DNA of 64,000 bases from assembly GCF_009914755.1 (NCBI RefSeq), contig NC_060929.1; one strand, 5' to 3'. Positions within the stretch are counted from its first letter, which is position 1, and every line of letters begins with the position of its first letter. Positions 6,661-64,000 of the stretch are shown one piece after another. Origin of the DNA: the human T2T-CHM13v2.0 reference genome, Homo sapiens. The position numbers and the translations under genes were made by a program. The notes beneath the pieces were generated by a model that ran no database searches, had not been told where the DNA came from, and was given only the letters and a program-made list of their open reading frames with translations.

Positions 6661-7105
6661 TATTAAATAAAATTTAGAGGAAGCCATTGGTTTGGACTAA
6701 GGTCCTATGTTAGGCCCAACAGACTGAATCAGAACTGAGTCACTCATGCTGTATTTCCACATCACAAAGTCAAAATTCAATTGTATATCTGATTTTCAAA
6801 AACATCAAGAGAGAGAAAGAGAATAGCCAAATTCCCAAGCAAGCCAGTTCTTTCAGCATGATAAGGAAGTCCCTTCTGCTTTAACCTTAACAAAGAAACT
6901 TTGAAAGGGCCCATCTGCTTTTTGTCTTCTGTTTCTGTTTCTTCAGCTCCTTTTTCGCTATAAAACTAAACATCTCTGCACAGCTCATTGAGACGCTCAG
7001 TTTTCTTTATAAAATGTGGTGTTGGTGTTGCCTGATTCTAGAATTGCAAATAAAAGCCAAATAAGATCTTTAAACTAATTTTTTTTTGTAATTTTGTCTT
7101 TGACA
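6661..7105 (+). mobile_element. ERV1-class solo LTR (MER93-like)
   Basis: Starts tattaaataaaatttagaggaagccattggtttggactaag, contains aataaa, ends gtaattttgtctttgaca; 4-bp TSD acac at 6657-6660 and 7106-7109. Confidence 0.8.
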
Positions 7106-12924: not shown

Positions 12925-14280
12925 GACTTCCAGTTAAACACAGAAAACTGATCATTCATTTTCACTAGAAATCCTACTTGAAACAGCACTAAAATATCAG
13001 TTAAAGAATTTTTTATAGGTAAAAACCAGAAAGAATAAAGAAAACAGAGGAGGGAAATACAGCAACGCAATTTTAAAAACCAGAAAACACTAGGATGAAT
13101 GGTTGCTGACCTATAAGTGGTTACTACCATCCAGATGTAGGCACATTTATGGTATAGCAGCCTGGAAAACCTCAGGAATTGATGGTACTAGGCACATCTG
13201 ATAGAGAGTAGGTAATGCTGAAAACAGATGTACTGTTGGCATGTCTCTCAAATCACACCTCACACACTATAGAATTGCTTATTCCCCCTTTTCCCTTCAC
13301 AGCCAAAGACTGTGAGGTACATTAAGCTCAAGAACATAGGTTCTAGTGGAGGAAGGGGAAGGGTCATAATACTGGAAACAAAGGGATTTAGTGAAAGACA
13401 ACACATTAAATGGTGAGGTCTCAAGCCTCCATCTTCTACTAGATTCTGTGCATGATGGCAGTCAAGTTTACAGCTTATGGCAAGAGATTAGACTACGGGT
13501 TTGAAACAATGGCCTACTGCTTGTTTTTATAAAGTTTTATTGGTATATAGCCATATCTTTTGTTTATGTATTGTCTGTGGCTACTTTTGTGCTACAATGG
13601 CAGAGTTAGCCAATAAGGCCTAAAATATTTGCTACCGGCTTTTACAGAGAAACTTTGCTGAACCCTAGGCTAGAAACTCCTTACAAGGAAACTGACTGGG
13701 ACAAGTAAACCATCTATAGAAACTGAAAACCAGAGTTTCCAAATGAAATGGCTCAGCATGTATGTAAATCCTGCAATAAATCTACCACTAGACAAAGCCC
13801 ATCTATGCAAATAGAATTGACAAACATCTTTGCAGTGAGTGCTTAGCTTCCCTTTAAATATAAAATAACATCCAAGGATTACCAAACATTTAAACAAAGT
13901 CTATAACACGAAATACAAAGATTAGAAAGAAAAATGCAGAGATTGGAGCTAAAAGAATCAATGAAGGTAGCAGAAGGAAAAAATGAATATACATACACAT
14001 ATATATGCAATGTCCTTGGATAAATAGATGGCATCAATTAAATGAAAAAGGGTTATACAAAAGAAGTATTCAGATAAAGCATTTTAAAATTAGATATACA
14101 ATACCTGAAAAAAAATTCACATGACATTCTGGAAGTTCAAAGAAATCTAGAAAGTAGAAGAACAAAAAAAGGAAAGCAACAAATAACTAATCTCAGAAAT
14201 TTTCTAAAGTGAAAACACTAGTGTTTCCAGATTGAGTGGTGAAACTGAGGGCTCACCACAATGTAAGAAAATAATACATA
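12925..14280 (+). mobile_element. Ancient HAL1/L1M-like 5' region, interrupted by MER58A
   Basis: Starts gacttccagttaaac; A-rich ORF1-like stretch; atccaaggattaccaaacattt; gtttccagattgag. Confidence 0.5.
13495..13668 (+). mobile_element. MER58A hAT-Charlie MITE
   Basis: ataaagttttattggtatatagcca...gctacttttgtgctacaatggcagagtt...cctaaaatattt...tttacagagaaactttgctgaaccct. Confidence 0.85.
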
Positions 14281-54688: not shown

Positions 54689-56811
54689 TATTTGACTCAC
54701 GTGTTAATTTGCAGTGCTTTTTTATTCTCCAAATATTTGGCGATGTTTTTAGCTATCTTTATCTTGCTGATTTTTACTTGTTAATATCTTTCATGACTCA
54801 ACATATACTTTGTCTAGCCGTATGTCCCATGTAAGCTTGAGATGAATGTATATACGACATTTATTGAATGAAAGATTCTATAAATGTCAAATAGATCTAG
54901 ATACTCAATGGTGGTTTTCTGTAAACTGGATGAAGTTATTAATTAGAAACCTTAACATAACAACCCTAGTAGCTGTACATGTTAGAGACTTCAAAGTTTT
55001 TTGTGCTAGTTATTTTTTCTCCCCTCTTTTCTTTGGGTTTCGCTAGATACTCTCTCTTAATTAGAGACTGTGTATTAGGCACTTAATTAGAGATTGTGTA
55101 TTACAGCTCTTGTAGCTAATTCACTGTTTGTATAGTGAAGTCTTATTGATCTGGTTGTAAGGTGATGGGGAGGGAAGCATTCTGTAATCTTATGATTAAA
55201 TCCCATTCTTTTAGTGGTTATGAGTCATTGGGCTATGACCTTTGTGAGCATTTCTTAGCTTTTTAAAATCTCGTCTTATGTGAGAAAGGAAGACTAGGGG
55301 AGTTTGGAGTTGTTTAACTGACATTTTCCTAAGTCAGAAAGGTCCTATAGTGTAGGCCTTTGTTATGGAGAAGTCTCTAGAGATATTTCAAAATGGTTAC
55401 TTCCTTCCCAAGTTTATTTCAAAACAGTGACTGTTCATTATTCCTGCCTGAAACAAGATAAATTATTCTCATACTTTCATTGTGAGTACCTACCTGGTGG
55501 GGCTACAGGAGGTTAAAATCATGAGAGTTCCGCCACAAGATTGGTACCCCAGGAGTTTTCAATTCTCAAGATTAAGTCCCCTTTTGAAAATATGATTTAA
55601 TCCTTTATTATTGGATATCTTGGAGGTGCTATCCAATTGAAATTTACATTTTTGCCTCATTTTAATCCAGGGATAAATTGCTAGCAAATTTCCTCTCTAG
55701 TTGATTTTAAGAGGGCACACAGCACAGCCACCATAGATATCCATTCCTTCCTTGAGATTGCCAGGGAATAATATAATTTTTTTTTAAATCCTGGCATTCT
55801 GAGAATTATCCCTAGGACAGAGTAGCTCATTGTGTAGTAAGTTGTGTTTAATCTCTTTGTGCCAGTGTACTTCACTGTGTTGATGGGTCTGTGTATGCTT
55901 AAGAAATGTTTCTGATTCTTGATTTCTTGATCTGATTGTTTTGGAATGAGTATAGCTTAGCACACACTCACAGCCTTCCAAACCCCAGCATGAAGTGTGA
56001 TTTCAGGAGGGCTCTTGTTGGCAATCTTTCTATAGTTTCCTCTATTTTACCTGTATCATATCCAATGCCTATAGGCGTGCAGTTCTCTATGCTCTTTTCA
56101 AATAAATTCAGTCCTGTCAATTCTTATGGCCTGCCTTTACCCTTAGCAGATCTCAGAGCTACTGCACTGGAACTAGCGTGGGGTGGGCAGGGGTGGGGGG
56201 CCTGGATTTTCCTGAAGTGATGCCTTCACATTATGAATGATCATGGGGTGTGGTCAAACTGAGAAGACCAGACCATACCTTCTGGTCTTCTCAGTTTGAT
56301 TCTTTCCAGCATGGAACCACCACCCTATGAACATTCTGAGGCAAGGGCCATTGGAACCTGATTATTCTCAGATTGCTCTATGTAAAGTAGAGCTTCTACT
56401 CTATGAGTGGGCTGGTGGGAAGGTAGAGGCAGGGAGGCACCTGGTTGTTTTAGCTATGCTTGCATGAAATAGAACACCTGCAACACAGGGTGACAAGGCA
56501 TTAGAAATCCTAACAACCTGCCCTACCCAGAGTGAAACCATAGCCCAAGAGTAGACAATGGTGAAGGGAGAGAGCCCCCATCTTCTAGGTCTCACTTGCA
56601 GGTTGTAGAATACCCAGGGCAAATTTTCTGTTATAGAGAACCTGGGGGAGCAGTGGGGATGGTAAAGGATTGGGTCATGGCTCAAATGCCACAGACTGTT
56701 GCCGTTCTTAGTGAGATTTAGTGCATTTTCTTGATGAAGATTTCTCCATTTGCTGTATCCCTTAGGAAAATTTCTAAAGACTTTAACTGATTGTTAGACA
56801 ACTGCCTCGAT

Positions 56812-57672
56812 TGCTTTTAATTATGATAAAATATATATAACATAAATCTTACTATCATAACCACTTTTAAGTGTACAGTTCAGTGATATTAAATACAACC
56901 AAAATCTTGTGTCACCTTTACCACTATTCATCTTCAGAACTTCCTTCATCTTGTAAAACTGAAACATTATACCCAATAAACAATAATTTTCCATTCCTCT
57001 CTTCCCCTAGTCCCTGAAAACAACCATTTTATTTTTATCTCTGTGGTAATTGACTACACTAAGGACCTCACATAAGTAGAATCATATAATATTTATCTTT
57101 TTGTAACTGGCCTATTTCACTTAGCATAATGTCCTCAAGGCTCATCCGTGTTGTAACACATGCCAGAATTTCCTTCCTTTTTCAGGCTGCATAGTATTCT
57201 ACTGCATGTATATACTGCATTGTGCTTATCCCTGCATCCACAAATGAGTGCTTGGGTTGCCTCCAGATTTTAGCTGTTGTGAATAACACTGCTATGAACA
57301 CGAGTGTGCAAATATCTCCTTGACACTTTCTTTTCAATTTTTTGAATATCGAATATATACCAAGAATAGAATACTGGATAATATAATTCTATTTTTAATT
57401 TTTTGAGGAACCACCAAACTGTTCTCCACAGTAGCTGTACCATTTCACATTCCCAACAACAAAGCACAAGGGTGTTGACACTATCTTGTCAACACTTGTT
57501 ATTTTATAACTTTTTGGTAGTAGCCATGGTAATGGGTATATGATAGTATTTCATTGTAGTTTTGATTTGCATTTTCCAAATGTTTAATGGCATTGAGCAT
57601 CGTTTCATCTGCTTACTGGCCATTTGTATATCTTCTTTGGATAAATGTATATTAAAATTTTTTGCCCATTTT
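56812..57672 (-). mobile_element. L1MB 3' part (host of the PTPRD retrocopy)
   Basis: ccacttttaagtgtacagttcagtgatattaaatac...; ends tttgcccatttt and resumes at 62607. Confidence 0.9.
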
Positions 57673-57714
57673 AATTTTTACTATTTTTCATTTTCTGTGG
57701 TAAACAAAAAATGA

Positions 57715-57720
57715 TTTAAT
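57715..57720 (-). promoter_or_regulatory. Fossil ATTAAA polyadenylation signal of the retrocopied mRNA
   Basis: tttaat on the + strand, about 20 nt from the decayed poly-T tract at 57673-57694. Confidence 0.7.
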
Positions 57721-58094
57721 AGAAAATAATAACAGATATGAAAAACTAATGAAAATATAAACAAAAATCTAAAAATAAATGCTATTAAAATATACATCAA
57801 TTATAAGGCACTCTAAATGCAAAATTAAAACAAATAACAAACCAAAAAAAAAAAAAAAAATTACAGCTCTTCCCAGGAATGCTGTTTGCCACAAAATGTT
57901 TCTTACTGAGCAGAGTAACATGCGTTTTGCTTTGCCTGTGGTACATATCATAAATGCAAATTTCATAGCAGACACTAGAGACAATGTTTCATTGAATACA
58001 CCTTTTAAAACAACTTAATTGCTGAAGTATTACAACATTCTTGCCTTCTAAAGGGATATTCACTGACCTTCCCACACTTATCAGATATTTAAAA

Positions 58095-58406
58095 CTTTTT
58101 TTCTTTTTTTTTTTTTTTTGAGAGGGAGTCTCACTCTGTCACCCAAGCTGGAGTGCAGTGGCGCAATCTCAGCTCGCTGCAACCTCCGCCTCCCATTTTC
58201 AAGCAATTCTCCTGTCTCAGCCTCCCCTCCTGAGTACTTGAGACTACAGGTGCCTGCCAACATGCCTGGCTAATTTTTGTATTTTTAGTAGAGACGGGGT
58301 TTCACCTTGTTAGTCAGGCTGGTCTTGAACTCATGACCTCAGGTGATCCATCTGCCTTCACCTCCCAAAGTTCTGGGATTACAGGCATGAGCCACTGCAC
58401 TCTGCC
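58095..58406 (-). mobile_element. AluSx/Sz inserted in the pseudogene 3' UTR
   Basis: Dimeric Alu with gacctcaggtgatcc; poly-T at the left end. Confidence 0.95.
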
Positions 58407-60304
58407 TAATAATGTTTTGTTGTACTAGAATGTTAGAAATATTGAACTTTGTTGGAAGCCTGGCCAACAAAATAGTATTTGTAAATATGATTGGGTGGCT
58501 GTGGGGAGAGGGATTAGGAAATTAGGGGGTGAGGTTTAACAATCACCAATGTGCACTTCTTATTTCCCTTAAAAAAATGAAGTTTCATAATATTAGGAAA
58601 CACAAATGTGTCATAAAATTAAGAATTGGAGAAAATGTTTACAATAGCTTTTCTACATTTAAAAAATGAAATCATGGAAGAACTGACTGATAGCTGTGCC
58701 TATATTTTTTGTGTGGACACTCTATATATACACTGTGGATAAATATGTACATATGTTAGCAGCAACTTTATAATTTGTACCTCCCTATTGATTCCAAAAT
58801 CAAACCAAAATAAAATTCTTTTTATTTTAAGAGAATGGATACTCTCTTACCAATCAAAACTGTACAGAAGTGAAAAATAATATCTGATCAGACATACTGT
58901 AGATTAAATTATTGCATAAAATATGCAAAATTTCAAATTATTTGATATTTCTAGAGCAATATATTACAGATAACAGTTCTACAGCTTAAAATTCTACAAT
59001 CTGGAAATAAAAAATAAAGAATTATGTAACTTTTTAAAAATTCACTTTATTGAATCATACATTTTGTTGAAAAAAAAGTTTACAAAGTTCAAAATGAAGC
59101 ACAGCAGACCTTTACAATACTAAAAAAATTAGTTCAGGAACACTCTTTTCAAACATTCCCACAGCCTTTCGCCTAAAATCTTATGAACAGTATGGCGGGA
59201 GGGGTGATGTCAAAGCAGAGTCCATTTCATTGTAAGGAGCCACCACACCAGCACACATCTTGCCGCGCTCAGGCAATTTCCCCTCACTCCTATCAAGCAA
59301 TCCTGAACAAGGTGGTTGTTCATTACTATGATTTCTTCTGTCCTTGATTTTGAATCCTTGAGGTATCAGTAAATAAAAACTCACAGATGCCTTGTCAGTC
59401 AGGATTCAAGTTAGGTTATTAAAGTGTGAAATCTTTCTCCACTGGAATGATTTGTTTTAATTTTGTGCATGTGTGTTATAGTCCCACTAAGTAGTTGTTA
59501 GTTAAAAGTTAAGAAGGACTTCTCAAGTGTCCTGCACGGTGCAGAAGAGACTCCATGGATATTGAAGGACTATAGTAAAAATCCAGAATGGGTCAGGGAT
59601 TTCTACATTGTATATTGATCAAAGCTGCCCAGTTTCTCTAGCACAACTCAATAGAAAAACCAATTCTCATTCTCTGTTTGTACCATGGCTGGCCATTGTG
59701 TTCTGTATGTTTTGATGGTCTGGAAGATATCTACAACTCTTTCACATCTCATTATTTCCAAAACAATGCTTAATATTATGAAGATTTTACTCCTTCCAAG
59801 CTCACATTACAGTGAACTGAAATGGGTCCATCTTGACCACAGTACTCTTTTGTTTTATGCACTTGGCCAATTAAGTCAATAAATCTTTTTCCAGACTTTG
59901 GCACTTTTTAATCTGGGCAGTCAGTGAACTGGAGCTGTCTCACTGTTCAGGACTGGCTGTCCTTGGCATCTATGACTTTAAATTCCCTTGTGATAAACTA
60001 TGGCATGTTGTACTCAGCCACAGGATCTACAACAAAGTACTGGTATCTTGTGGATTATTCTGCTGGCCAGTATTGGTGACATTTTTCTCTGCCCATTTCA
60101 CACAGCTTGGTGAAATTGTGTTTCCAGAGCATCCACTGGAAGTCCTCAGTGATCTCTTTCAAGGGTCCCTAATGTAAGCTTTCTATTGTCTTTACTCATC
60201 AATAAAACTGGCATTAATGTAACCAGATACTTCTACTCCATGGATAGGCTGCAAGTACAACCTTGTGGATTTATATGGTGTAATATTAACAAGGTGATTT
60301 TTGA

Positions 60305-62122
<1,818 letters not shown>

Positions 62123-62473
62123 GAAATTATTGCATGGAAGATTGGCACTGAGGAAACCTGAGATGTGAGCTTTTGAGCTGATTAGATGCTTAAATTTGAG
62201 CACCACTCCTATGACATTCTGTCCCCTCTCTATTTGTGTCAGTTTCTAATATAGGCATACAAGTTTCTAGCTGGAACTTTGGTATTTACACAAGTAACTG
62301 CCTCTAACAGTGCATCATGGACAGAGATACACTGGTCTCCTGCTTGAACCATGTAATTCCTCTGGGTTCTCATTAAAGTTGCATAGGCATAATTACCTAC
62401 AGTTTTTTCATGCTTGATTCTTTCCAACATGGCATCTATGACAATGAAACAACCAGTCCAGCCAACTCCTTCA

Positions 62474-62606
62474 GATTCGGTAGGCTGTGCAAGCATGGCA
62501 GCTGCATCTGCTTGTCTTCTGGTGTGGCCTCAGGAAGCTTTTATGCAAGGTGGAAGGTAAAGGGGGAGTGAGTGTGTCACATAGTGAGAAAGGAAGCAGA
62601 AGAGCC
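62474..62606 (-). mobile_element. MST-family MaLR LTR segment forming the first exon of the retrocopy
   Basis: Minus strand reads ctcactatgtgacacactcactccccctttaccttccacc..aagcttcctgaggccacaccagaag..agcagatgcagctgccatgcttgcacagcctaccgaatc, matching the MSTA/B transcribed segment up to the splice donor. Confidence 0.85.
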
Positions 62607-64000
62607 TTTGCCAATTTTTAAATCAAGTTGCTGTTGGGATTGTTTGGTTGTTGAGTTTTAGTTCTCTGTATATTGATGATAGTAAGCCTTTATAAGTTAC
62701 GTGATTTGAAAATATTTTCTCTTATCCTATGGTTTGCATTTATCACACTTGGCTGGCAATGTCTTGATTCACAAATTTATTATTAGTTTTTTTTTTAGAG
62801 ATGGAAATCTCCCTATTTTGCCCAGGCTGGACTTGAACTACACTCAAGCGATCCTCCTGTCTTAGCCTTCTGGGTAATTGGGACTACAGATGCACACCAT
62901 CGCATTCTAATTTTAAATCTTTATCGACTCCTGTGTGTCTATTTTTGTCTTTTTCTGTGCCTTTGGTGTCATATCCAAGAAAGCACTGCCAAATCAATGT
63001 CATGAAGCTTTTCCTTATGTTTCTTACAAGAGTGTTAGAGTTTTAGTTTACCTTTAGGTTTTTGGTATATTTAGAATTAATTTTTGTATAAAGGGTCCAA
63101 CTTAATTCTTTTACATGTGGATATCCAGTTTTCCCTGCACCATTTGTAGAAAAGATAGTCCTTTCCCCATTGAATGGTTTTGGTACCCTAGTCAAAAATC
63201 ATTTGACCATATATGTGAGGGTCTATTTCTGGGCACTCTATTCTATCCCACTGGTCATATGTCCTTCTTCATGCTAGTACTTCATGGTTTGATTATTGTA
63301 GCTTTGTAGCAAGTTTTCAAAATCAGGGAGTGTGTGTCTTTCAGGTTTGCCCTTTTTCAAGATTACTTTGACCATTCAGTGTCCCTTGAAATTCTATATA
63401 AATGTTAGGGTGGATTTTTTTATTTCTGAAAAGTACATCACTGGGATTTTGATAGATATTGCATTGAGTTTGTAGCTCACTTTGGGTAGTATTAACATCT
63501 TAATACTATTAATCCTTCCAATTCATGAATATAGAATGTCTTTCCAATTATTTATGTCCTCTTTAATTTCTTTAAGCAATATTTTGTAGTTTTTATTATA
63601 CAAGTTTTTAACCTTCTTGACTAATTCCTAAGTATTTTATTCTTTTTGATGCTATTGTAAATGCAATATTTTTTAGTTTCCTTTTCAGATTGTTCAGTTA
63701 GTCTATGAAAATGTAACTGATTTTTGTGTGCTACCTTTATAGCCTCCTGCTTTGTTGAATTTATTATTTCCACATTTTTTGTAGAATTGTTAAGGTTTTC
63801 AATATATATGATTGTGTCATCTGCAGAGATAATATTACCTCTTCCTTTTCCATTCATACGTGTTGCATTTCTTTCGCTTGACTCATTCATCTGGCTAGAA
63901 ATTCTAATATTATATTGAAGAGAAGTACCACAATTAGCAACCCTTGCCTTGTTCTTGAAATTAAAGCTTTTAATTTTTCATAATTGAGTATGATATTCAC
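62607..64000 (-). mobile_element. L1MB continuation (ORF2 region)
   Basis: Resumes tttgccaatttttaaatc...gttgttgagtttt; ADDTIIYIENL (ORF 63621-63890) resembles the L1 RT motif FADDMIVYLEN. Confidence 0.9.
62787..62908 (-). mobile_element. FLAM / Alu monomer
   Basis: tttagagatggaaatctccctattttgcccaggctggacttgaact..ctcaagcgatcctcc..gggactacagatgcacacc. Confidence 0.85.

What the first reader, a model, noticed from the sequence alone, without database searches (positions are those of the whole stretch)
62461..62606. Fossil of an LTR-initiated, truncated PTPRD mRNA: MST exon spliced in frame at HCS|AGVG
Seen: the 5' end of the retrocopy, inside its TSDs, is about 133 nt of MST LTR. It begins in the CT-rich region and stops at ...cagcctaccgaaTC (62474). 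The next base starts T GAA GGA GTT GGC, which corresponds to PTPRD T GCG GGA GTT GGC. The LTR's gccATG (62496) is in frame: [24 protein letters not shown]. Established (recalled, not checked here): the MST consensus continues cagcctgcagaacc|GTGAG, the MaLR splice donor; PTP genes carry a phase-2 intron within HCS|AG; MaLR LTRs act as oocyte/early-embryo promoters that supply a first exon, ATG and donor. Inference: an intronic MST in ancestral primate PTPRD drove a germline transcript that was reverse-transcribed close to its 5' end. It would encode a soluble protein lacking the ectodomain, transmembrane segment and D1 catalytic Cys but keeping the whole D2 (the liprin/Trio-binding domain). That is a candidate decoy or dominant-negative isoform that may still be expressed.
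Basis: partly seen in the sequence, partly recalled or inferred. Interest (0 to 1): 0.92.

Follow-up and report, generated by a model that had tools for sequence, protein, structure and literature searches.

The report
Retrocopy of an LTR-started PTPRD transcript
An old, dead copy of the PTPRD gene on chromosome 5 was made from a messenger RNA that began inside a retrovirus-like MST repeat and was spliced onto the middle of PTPRD, but that repeat is not found in today's human PTPRD gene, so this is a curiosity of genome history rather than evidence of a living protein isoform.

Summary
On the minus strand, 131 nt of an MST-type MaLR LTR (62604-62474) lie inside the target-site duplications of the PTPRD processed pseudogene. 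The piece starts about 26 nt after the LTR's TTTAAAAG box. It ends where 27 genomic MST copies continue with GTGAGCC-AAATAAA, the LTR's donor. The next base (62473) is the first base of the PTPRD exon that follows ...catAG| in the gene (HCS|AGVG, phase 2). The LTR's ATG is in frame.

This is therefore an L1-made retrocopy of a spliced, LTR-initiated MST-PTPRD RNA. It is a fossil of a known kind of transcript.

The 33.9-kb intron before that exon, and 200 kb upstream in all, hold no sense-strand MST in the T2T human genome. Only three antisense MaLR LTRs are there, and the intronic one is not specially similar to the piece. The source LTR was therefore lost, never fixed, or lay elsewhere (trans-splicing). 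"May still be expressed" has no support in human, and the decoy-protein idea is speculation. An out-of-frame ATG also lies 11 nt upstream of the in-frame one. Other primate genomes would decide the matter; none was available here. Interest is moderate: a new member of a known kind.

The parts
62605..62622 (-). 5' target-site duplication (reads tttaaaaattggcaaagg on the minus strand), part of an old L1 ORF2-3' fragment
   Evidence: The flank aligns to L1 copies of the window up to ...GGCGAAGG. The same L1 stretch begins the 3' flank.
62474..62604 (-). MST-type MaLR LTR piece, 131 nt, running from the presumed LTR start site to the LTR splice donor. It holds the in-frame ATG at 62496-62494, an out-of-frame ATG at 62507-62505, and an ATG-TGA minimal ORF near its 5' end.
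   Evidence: for the repeat identity, the start about 26 nt after the TTTAAAAG box and the stop at gaacc|GTGAG. for the frame. The family name MST is recalled, not given by a tool.
62123..62473 (-). PTPRD retrocopy, first block: the exon beginning TGCGGGAGTTGGC (AGVGRTG..., end of phosphatase domain D1) and the start of the next exon
   Evidence: 88% identity to C9:8348249-8348530 and 85% to C9:8347772-8347826. One search gives the exon start after catAG; the exon aligns to residues 230-324 of the D1-D2 structure 2fh7.
60320..62122 (+). Later 5'-truncated L1 insertion that splits the retrocopy, with a perfect 17-nt TSD (60303-60319 and 62123-62139)
   Evidence: (family D4).
58407..60319 (-). 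PTPRD retrocopy, second block: the remaining D1-D2 linker and D2 exons and most of the 3' UTR
   Evidence: exon-by-exon matches on C9 at 89, 87, 85, 83 and 79% identity; the exon missed is present at 78-93%.
58093..58406 (-). Later Alu insertion in the retrocopy's 3' UTR
   Evidence: (the sequence reads as an Alu with an A tail) and the gap between the two RefSeq pseudogene blocks in the hub's table.
57696..58092 (-). PTPRD retrocopy, last block (end of the 3' UTR)
   Evidence: RefSeq pseudogene block in the hub's table. I did not align this block to chromosome 9.
57659..57695 (-). Decayed A-rich tail (about 57695-57677) running into the 3' target-site duplication (about 57676-57659, reads aattaaaatgggcaaaaa)
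   Evidence: The border between tail and TSD is ambiguous because both are A-rich.

Best explanation
This is an L1-mediated processed pseudogene made from a spliced chimeric RNA. Transcription began at the start site of an MST (MaLR) LTR. The LTR's own splice donor (gaacc|GTGAGCC, just before its AATAAA) was joined to the acceptor of the PTPRD exon that begins inside the catalytic motif (HCS|AGVGRTG). All later PTPRD exons and the 3' UTR followed. L1 machinery copied this RNA, nearly or fully to its 5' end, into an old L1 fragment on chromosome 5. A second L1 and an Alu later landed in the copy.

The most likely source was a sense-oriented MST in the 34-kb intron just upstream of that exon. 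It has since been deleted, or it was an insertion allele that never became fixed.

Shown: the anatomy of the copy, the two splice-site coincidences, the frame, and the absence of the LTR today. Inferred: the start site, cis-splicing, the loss of the LTR, and germline or early-embryo expression (needed for any inherited retrocopy). Not shown: any protein.
For: -: the insert lies between overlapping L1-derived flanks (TSDs), so the MST piece arrived with the retrocopy.
- the piece is a high-copy repeat, and none of 39 scored copies extends past window 62472 or starts before 62605.
- in 27 of 27 copies the homology stops at ...gaacc and the copies go on with xTGAGCC-AAATAAA (GT in 12, AT in 13).
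- PTPRD reads catAG|TGCGGGAGTTGGC and the window reads c|TGAAGGAGTTGGC, with the same length and 2 substitutions in the first 8 bases.
- the previous exon ends CAC TGC AG|gtaag.
- every later exon is present, in order and without introns.
- a TTTAAAAG-like box starts a median 26.5 nt before the base aligned with the copy's first base. It was found in 24 of 27 copies, and 18 of those 24 fall between 23 and 31 nt.
- Passages read: MaLR LTRs carry a promoter, a start site, a splice donor near their 3' end and sometimes a working AUG (Franke 2017, PMC5538554). A subset of MaLRs encode a canonical donor, and human oocytes hold LTR-initiated isoforms of 639 genes (PMC6102241). The donor-next-to-polyA layout of LTRs is described in PMC12999487. 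TE-derived start sites have TATA boxes at -25 to -30 (PMC12963367).
Against: - No sense-strand MST is found in the 33,941-nt intron or in the 200 kb upstream of the exon in this human genome. The only multi-query sense cluster is a T-run.
- The three MaLR LTRs found there are all antisense. The intronic one ranks 22nd of 28 in similarity to the piece.
- The best hits for the piece lie elsewhere, led by chromosome X at 85%. Only 40 of 925 candidates were scored.
- The first 6 bases of the PTPRD part carry 2 mismatches, so BLAST starts its alignment 4 bases in.
- The start site is inferred from box spacing alone.
- DNA more than 200 kb upstream could not be fetched.
Confidence: 0.7

Rival explanations
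1. Trans-splicing. An RNA started in an MST LTR somewhere else in the genome, and its donor was joined in trans to the acceptor of this PTPRD exon. The product was then retrocopied.
For: It explains both exact splice-site ends and also why no sense MST is found upstream of the exon. The closest copies of the piece are on other chromosomes.
Against: Trans-splicing between separate genes is rare in mammals (established knowledge, recalled). No copy stands out as a donor: the best is 85% against 82-83% for the next ones. Loss or non-fixation of one intronic LTR over tens of millions of years is a more ordinary event.
Confidence: 0.12
2. L1 reverse transcriptase switched templates, as in U6-L1 chimeric retrocopies. 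It was copying PTPRD mRNA and jumped to an unrelated MST-containing RNA, and the two ends only happen to coincide with splice sites.
For: It needs no MST in PTPRD. Chimeric retrocopies made by template switching are known (review passages in PMC5470649; the U6-L1 class is recalled).
Against: The PTPRD part would have to stop exactly at an exon's first base, and the MST part would have to end exactly at the LTR donor and start at the presumed start site. A junction by microhomology at GAG would leave 5 bases between gaacc and ttggc. The window has 8, as the spliced model predicts.
Confidence: 0.06
3. Genomic juxtaposition. A 5'-truncated PTPRD retrocopy landed next to an MST fragment that was already there, or an MST fragment was inserted later.
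For: Pseudogenes do land beside LTRs and the reverse (Franke 2017).
Against: The MST piece lies inside the TSDs, and the flanks on both sides are one continuous L1 fragment. The piece is an internal 131-nt stretch without LTR ends or a TSD of its own. Its ends coincide with splice sites.
Confidence: 0.02
4. The source is the antisense MST-like LTR still present in the intron (C9 about 8361517-8361908), flipped by a later inversion between nearby Alu elements.
For: An MST-like LTR does sit in the right intron, with Alu-like matches on both strands around it.
Against: Its similarity to the piece is ordinary: 22nd of 28 by score, with 22 gap columns. It lacks stretches that the piece has. The inversion is an ad hoc assumption.
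Confidence: 0.03

Closest known systems
LTR-initiated chimeric transcripts of MaLR elements in oocytes and early embryos, such as the mouse oocyte Dicer1 isoform driven by an intronic MT LTR
   Same: An LTR supplies the promoter, the first exon, a splice donor near the LTR's 3' end and sometimes the AUG. It splices into a downstream host exon and gives an N-terminally truncated product (passages of PMC5538554, and PMC6102241).
   Different: Here no living transcript or LTR is seen. Only a retrocopy about 12-14% diverged from the parent exons records it. The LTR is a primate MST rather than a rodent MT, and no function is shown.
Processed pseudogenes used as fossils of past transcript forms (Shemesh et al. 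2006, seen only as a reference entry and otherwise recalled; microRNA retrocopies, PMC7692494, start of abstract)
   Same: A retrocopy preserves the exon structure and the ends of a germline RNA of its time.
   Different: The preserved feature here is an LTR-derived first exon whose source is no longer in the parent gene. I found no paper describing that for PTPRD.
L1 template-switch chimeric retrocopies (U6-L1 type; recalled)
   Same: Two unrelated RNAs lie in one L1-type insertion with a single pair of TSDs.
   Different: Those junctions fall at arbitrary points of the 3' partner. Here both sides of the junction are splice sites.
LTR-mediated retroposition (Tan et al. 2016, PMC5131818, title and start of abstract; review passages)
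   Same: LTR-element sequence is attached to a gene retrocopy.
   Different: That class is flanked by LTR sequence on both sides. This copy has one internal LTR piece, an A-rich tail and TSDs of about 18 nt in an A/T-rich target, which are the marks of L1.

Membership tests
L1-mediated processed pseudogene | Consecutive exons of the parent gene joined without introns | tested here: met
   seven PTPRD exon blocks on C9 between 8348534 and about 8323177 are contiguous in the window, apart from the later L1 and Alu insertions.
L1-mediated processed pseudogene | Target-site duplications flanking the whole insert | tested here: met
   both flanks align to the same stretch of about 18 nt in two L1 copies. 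The two TSD copies match at 12 of 18 positions, and at 11 of 12 in the core (read).
L1-mediated processed pseudogene | Poly(A) tail after the parent's 3' UTR end | tested here: met
   a decayed A-rich run (gaaaatgaaaaatagtaaaaa) follows the annotated pseudogene end at 57696.
MaLR LTR-initiated chimeric transcript | The LTR part ends at the LTR's splice donor | tested here: met
   homology stops at gaacc| in 27 of 27 copies. The next two bases are GT in 12 and AT in 13.
MaLR LTR-initiated chimeric transcript | The LTR exon is joined to the acceptor of an annotated host exon | tested here: met
   catAG|TGCGGGAGTTGGC. Window 62473 is the first base of that exon.
MaLR LTR-initiated chimeric transcript | The RNA begins at the LTR's start site downstream of its TATA-like box | tested here: inconclusive
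   the box starts a median 26.5 nt upstream of the aligned 5' end (24 of 27 copies). This fits a TATA at -25 to -30 (PMC12963367), but no start-site data for MST were seen.
MaLR LTR-initiated chimeric transcript | A sense-oriented LTR upstream of the joined exon in the host gene | tested here: not met
   none in the 33,941-nt intron or in 200 kb upstream in the T2T human genome. The ancestral state is not testable with these tools.
L1 template-switch chimera (U6-L1 type) | The junction lies at an arbitrary internal point of the 3' partner | tested here: not met
   the junction is exactly at an exon start.
LTR-mediated retroposition | The retrocopy is flanked by LTR-element sequence on both sides | tested here: not met
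   the 3' side has an A-rich tail and then the L1-derived TSD, with no LTR sequence.

The most novel reading that the evidence does not exclude
The chromosome-5 pseudogene may be the only surviving record of a sense-oriented, active MST promoter insertion inside PTPRD that was later purged from the lineage, either never fixed or deleted. Such an LTR carries a donor, a poly(A) signal and an in-frame ATG, and would have made a D2-only product, which could be why it was removed. If so, retrocopies can archive extinct transposon-insertion alleles together with the transcripts they drove. This one would show that MST LTRs used the same start site and donor in the germline of early anthropoids as MaLR LTRs use in oocytes today.
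Probability: 0.55. Interest if true: 0.5.

Novelty: new member of a known kind. Interest (0 to 1): 0.4.

Why it matters
The copy gives direct sequence evidence that an MST LTR acted as a promoter with a working first exon and donor in heritable cells tens of millions of years ago, at a time when MST elements were still young. It extends the RefSeq pseudogene LOC100129526 by about 350 nt of PTPRD sequence plus the 131-nt LTR exon beyond the L1 insertion. It also poses a clean comparative-genomics question: which primates, if any, keep the LTR in the PTPRD intron? It does not show that humans make a truncated PTPRD protein.

Tried and rejected
- Source LTR search. BLAST used the window piece, 7 best-hit MST copies and 20 arbitrary copies against the intron and 200 kb upstream. 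Only antisense MaLR LTRs appeared, at offsets 12987-13378, 56776-56918 and 172793-173143. Other hits came from the Alu or simple-repeat flanks carried by queries L005, L006, L039 and L052. That attribution is my reading of their query positions and sequence.
- Sense cluster at offset 7067-7090. Nine queries hit it, but it proved to be a run of T followed by ATAAATT.
- More upstream PTPRD DNA. The rest of the 2-Mb gene is therefore unscanned. A sense MST somewhere in so large a gene is expected by chance and would say little, because a first exon normally splices to the next acceptor.
- The 16-mer pattern search. It lists only the first 100 of 4114 places, so it could not be filtered for chromosome 9.
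- Dating by similarity to other MST copies. I rejected this as uninformative about when the retrocopy was made, because the piece evolved neutrally both before and after retroposition.
- Literature. No paper holds PTPRD + MSTA + LTR. The one paper holding PTPRD + pseudogene + retrotransposed is unrelated by title. PTPRD is absent from the 4 held supplements of PMC6102241. Shemesh 2006 is not held. Supplements of the other papers were not opened.
- No consensus of the LTR copies was built. Subfamily assignment (MSTA, MSTB and so on) was therefore not attempted.

Full report
**What is in the sequence.** Everything below is read on the minus strand.
- An old L1 ORF2-3' fragment runs up to ...gatttaaaaattggcaaagg (ending at 62605).
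- Then come 131 nt of an LTR-like repeat (62604-62474).
- PTPRD-like sequence starts at 62473 with TGAAGGAGTTGGCTGGACTGG.
- The PTPRD-like sequence is broken by a plus-strand, 5'-truncated L1 (60320-62122) with a perfect 17-nt TSD (family D4), and by an Alu (58093-58406).
- It ends at 57696 and is followed by a decayed A-rich run.
- After that the same L1 stretch appears again (...aattaaaatgggcaaaaa...) and continues into the rest of the L1 fragment.

Local alignment of both flanks to two other L1 copies of the window shows that they meet in the same stretch of about 18 nt. These are the target-site duplications of a single insertion, and the LTR piece lies inside them. RefSeq's pseudogene LOC100129526 (57696-60319) stops at the L1 insertion. 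It misses the 351 nt of PTPRD sequence beyond it and the LTR piece.

**The LTR piece.** The window's own genome is held and can be searched.
- Window 62620-62461 gave 925 first-look candidates. Forty were scored: the window itself and 39 others at 78-89% identity.
- Of the 39, 18 start at query base 17 (window 62604) and none starts before base 16.
- 24 end at base 145 (62476), 5 at 146-149 and 10 earlier. None passes base 149 (62472).
- A 16-mer from the piece occurs 4114 times with at most one mismatch, against 5 for the reversed control.
- I aligned the 7 best copies and 20 copies taken without regard to similarity, namely the first 20 places listed.
- In all 27 copies the likeness to the window stops at ...cagaacc, and the copies go on with xTGAGCC followed directly by AAATAAA. 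The two bases after the break are GT in 12, AT in 13, AC in 1 and CT in 1.
- The AT forms are what decay of the CpG across cc|gt would give (inference).
- This donor-next-to-poly(A)-signal layout is described for LTRs in PMC12999487 (passage). A donor near the 3' end of MaLR LTRs, sometimes with a working AUG, is described in Franke 2017 (PMC5538554, passage).
No tool named it and no subfamily was assigned.

**The 5' end of the piece.** In 24 of the 27 copies a TTTAAAAG-like box can be recognised. It starts a median 26.5 nt (range 14-34; 18 of 24 between 23 and 31) before the base aligned with the first base of the piece. TE-derived start sites carry TATA boxes at -25 to -30 (PMC12963367, passage). 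The copy therefore begins about where an LTR-driven RNA should begin. This is an inference from spacing; I saw no start-site data for MST.

**The PTPRD side.**
- The window's 62469-62189 matches C9:8348249-8348530 (minus strand) at 88%.
- The gene there reads ...ttttcctcatAG|TGCGGGAGTTGGCCGGACTGG. Window base 62473 is therefore the first base of that exon.
- The 8 bases between ...gaatc and ttggc are TGAAGGAG in the window and TGCGGGAG in the gene. The length is the same, with two substitutions at a CpG.
- A non-spliced join by microhomology at GAG would leave 5 bases there, not 8.
- The exon translates to [16 protein letters not shown]... and aligns to residues 230-324 of the D1-D2 structure of the sister phosphatase (2fh7, E 1.5e-67).
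- The previous exon was found by tblastx with the PTPRF locus. It ends ATG GTT GTG CAC TGC AG|gtaag.
- All later exons follow in order in the window, at 89, 78-93, 87, 85 and 83% identity. The last exon with the 3' UTR is at 79%.

**Frame.** From the ATG at 62496 the window reads [24 protein letters not shown].... The ATG-to-donor distance is 23 nt, which fits a phase-2 acceptor. Reading the piece (printed) also shows an ATG-TGA pair near its 5' end and a second ATG 11 nt before the in-frame one. That second ATG is out of frame and runs into a stop within the exon. Translation from the in-frame ATG is thus possible but not assured. The retrocopy itself has several stops within 120 codons.

**What it is.** The insert has a single pair of TSDs and an intronless run of exons. 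Its LTR piece starts at the expected start site and ends at the LTR donor, and the donor is joined to the exact start of a host exon. Together these say that an RNA begun in an MST LTR and spliced to PTPRD was retrocopied by L1. I put this general reading near 0.9. Because the copy is inherited, the RNA must have existed in germline or early-embryo cells. Such cells are where MaLR LTR-initiated transcripts are known today (passages).

- I fetched 200 kb upstream of the exon (C9:8348531-8548530). I searched it with the window piece, with 7 genomic copies, and at E up to 1 with all 27 copies on the intron alone.
- LTR-body matches occur at three places, all on the C9 plus strand, which is antisense to PTPRD: offsets 12987-13378 (in the intron), 56776-56918 and 172793-173143.
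- On the sense strand, the only cluster hit by many queries is a T-run. The others stem from Alu or simple-repeat flanks of a few queries.
- The intronic antisense LTR is MST-like but ranks 22nd of 28 in alignment score to the piece, with 22 gap columns. It is no special relative.
- The best hits for the piece lie on other chromosomes, with chromosome X at 85%.
- DNA further upstream could not be fetched. An LTR there would have had to skip many good acceptors.

In today's human genome there is therefore no LTR that could make this transcript. 'May still be expressed' is unsupported for human.

**How the gap is best explained.**
- Coding exons differ by about 13.5% (length-weighted over the six exon blocks), and the last exon with the 3' UTR differs by 21%.
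- With a neutral rate of about 2e-9 per site per year (recalled), the copy is very roughly 40-60 million years old.
- MSTB, MSTA and THE1 are simian-specific, and MaLR activity ended about 45 million years ago (Zuo 2023, PMC10735291, passages).
- The best genomic copies resemble the piece (78-85%) about as much as the parent's 3' UTR resembles the copy's (79%). The LTR family was therefore probably young when the retrocopy was made (inference).
- A young, active, sense-oriented LTR with a donor, a poly(A) signal and an in-frame ATG inside an essential gene is the kind of insertion that selection removes. All three MaLR LTRs in the 200 kb scanned are antisense.
- Loss or non-fixation of the source is thus the most ordinary explanation (about 0.7 together with cis-splicing).
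- The rivals are trans-splicing from an LTR elsewhere (about 0.12), template switching by L1 reverse transcriptase with two chance coincidences (about 0.06), inversion of the intronic LTR (about 0.03) and genomic juxtaposition (about 0.02).

**Comparison with what is known.** The mechanism is that of LTR-initiated chimeric transcripts, with the mouse oocyte Dicer1 isoform as the textbook case of an intronic MaLR LTR giving a truncated protein. The use of retrocopies as records of past transcripts is also established. Shemesh 2006 was seen only as a reference entry and is otherwise recalled; PMC7692494 was seen as the start of its abstract. I found no paper on this pseudogene's LTR exon: 0 papers hold PTPRD + MSTA + LTR, the 1 paper holding PTPRD + pseudogene + retrotransposed is unrelated, and there are no PTPRD entries in the 4 held supplements of PMC6102241. 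Supplements of other oocyte and embryo atlases were not seen and could list a PTPRD LTR isoform.

**Verdict.** This is a new member of a known kind, with one unexplained point (the missing source LTR) that other primate genomes would settle. The decoy or dominant-negative protein idea rests on the recalled D2-liprin/Trio binding and is not testable from this sequence. Interest is 0.4.

Noticed in passing
window 60320-62473 versus the RefSeq pseudogene span 57696-60319: The curated pseudogene LOC100129526 ends at the later L1 insertion. A further 351 nt of PTPRD-derived sequence (62123-62473) and the 131-nt LTR exon beyond it are not annotated.
   Followed up: yes
window 60303-60319 and 62123-62139: A plus-strand, 5'-truncated L1 (60320-62122) split the retrocopy and left a perfect 17-nt TSD (GAAATTATTGCATGGAA). 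It is therefore much younger than the retrocopy, whose own TSD copies match at only 12 of 18 positions.
   Followed up: partly
G000 C9 about 8361517-8361908 (offset 12987-13378 of the fetched stretch, loci L014): An MST-like LTR lies antisense in the very PTPRD intron where the source LTR was expected. It has internal deletions and a changed donor region, and Alu-like matches of both orientations lie around it.
   Followed up: partly
G000 C9:8348531-8548530 (loci L013-L032): All three MaLR LTRs found in the 200 kb upstream of the exon are antisense to PTPRD. This fits the known bias against sense LTRs in introns, but three is a small number.
   Followed up: no
window 62505-62507 and about 62580-62582 (minus strand): The LTR exon holds two more ATGs. 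One is followed at once by TGA. The other is out of frame, 11 nt before the in-frame ATG, and is also present in most genomic copies. It would compete with the in-frame start.
   Followed up: partly
loci L033-L052 versus the window piece: The window's LTR piece is slightly less like 20 arbitrary copies (mean 71%) than those copies are like each other (mean 75% over 190 pairs). The cause is unknown; subfamily mix, alignment gaps or extra change on this lineage are possible.
   Followed up: no
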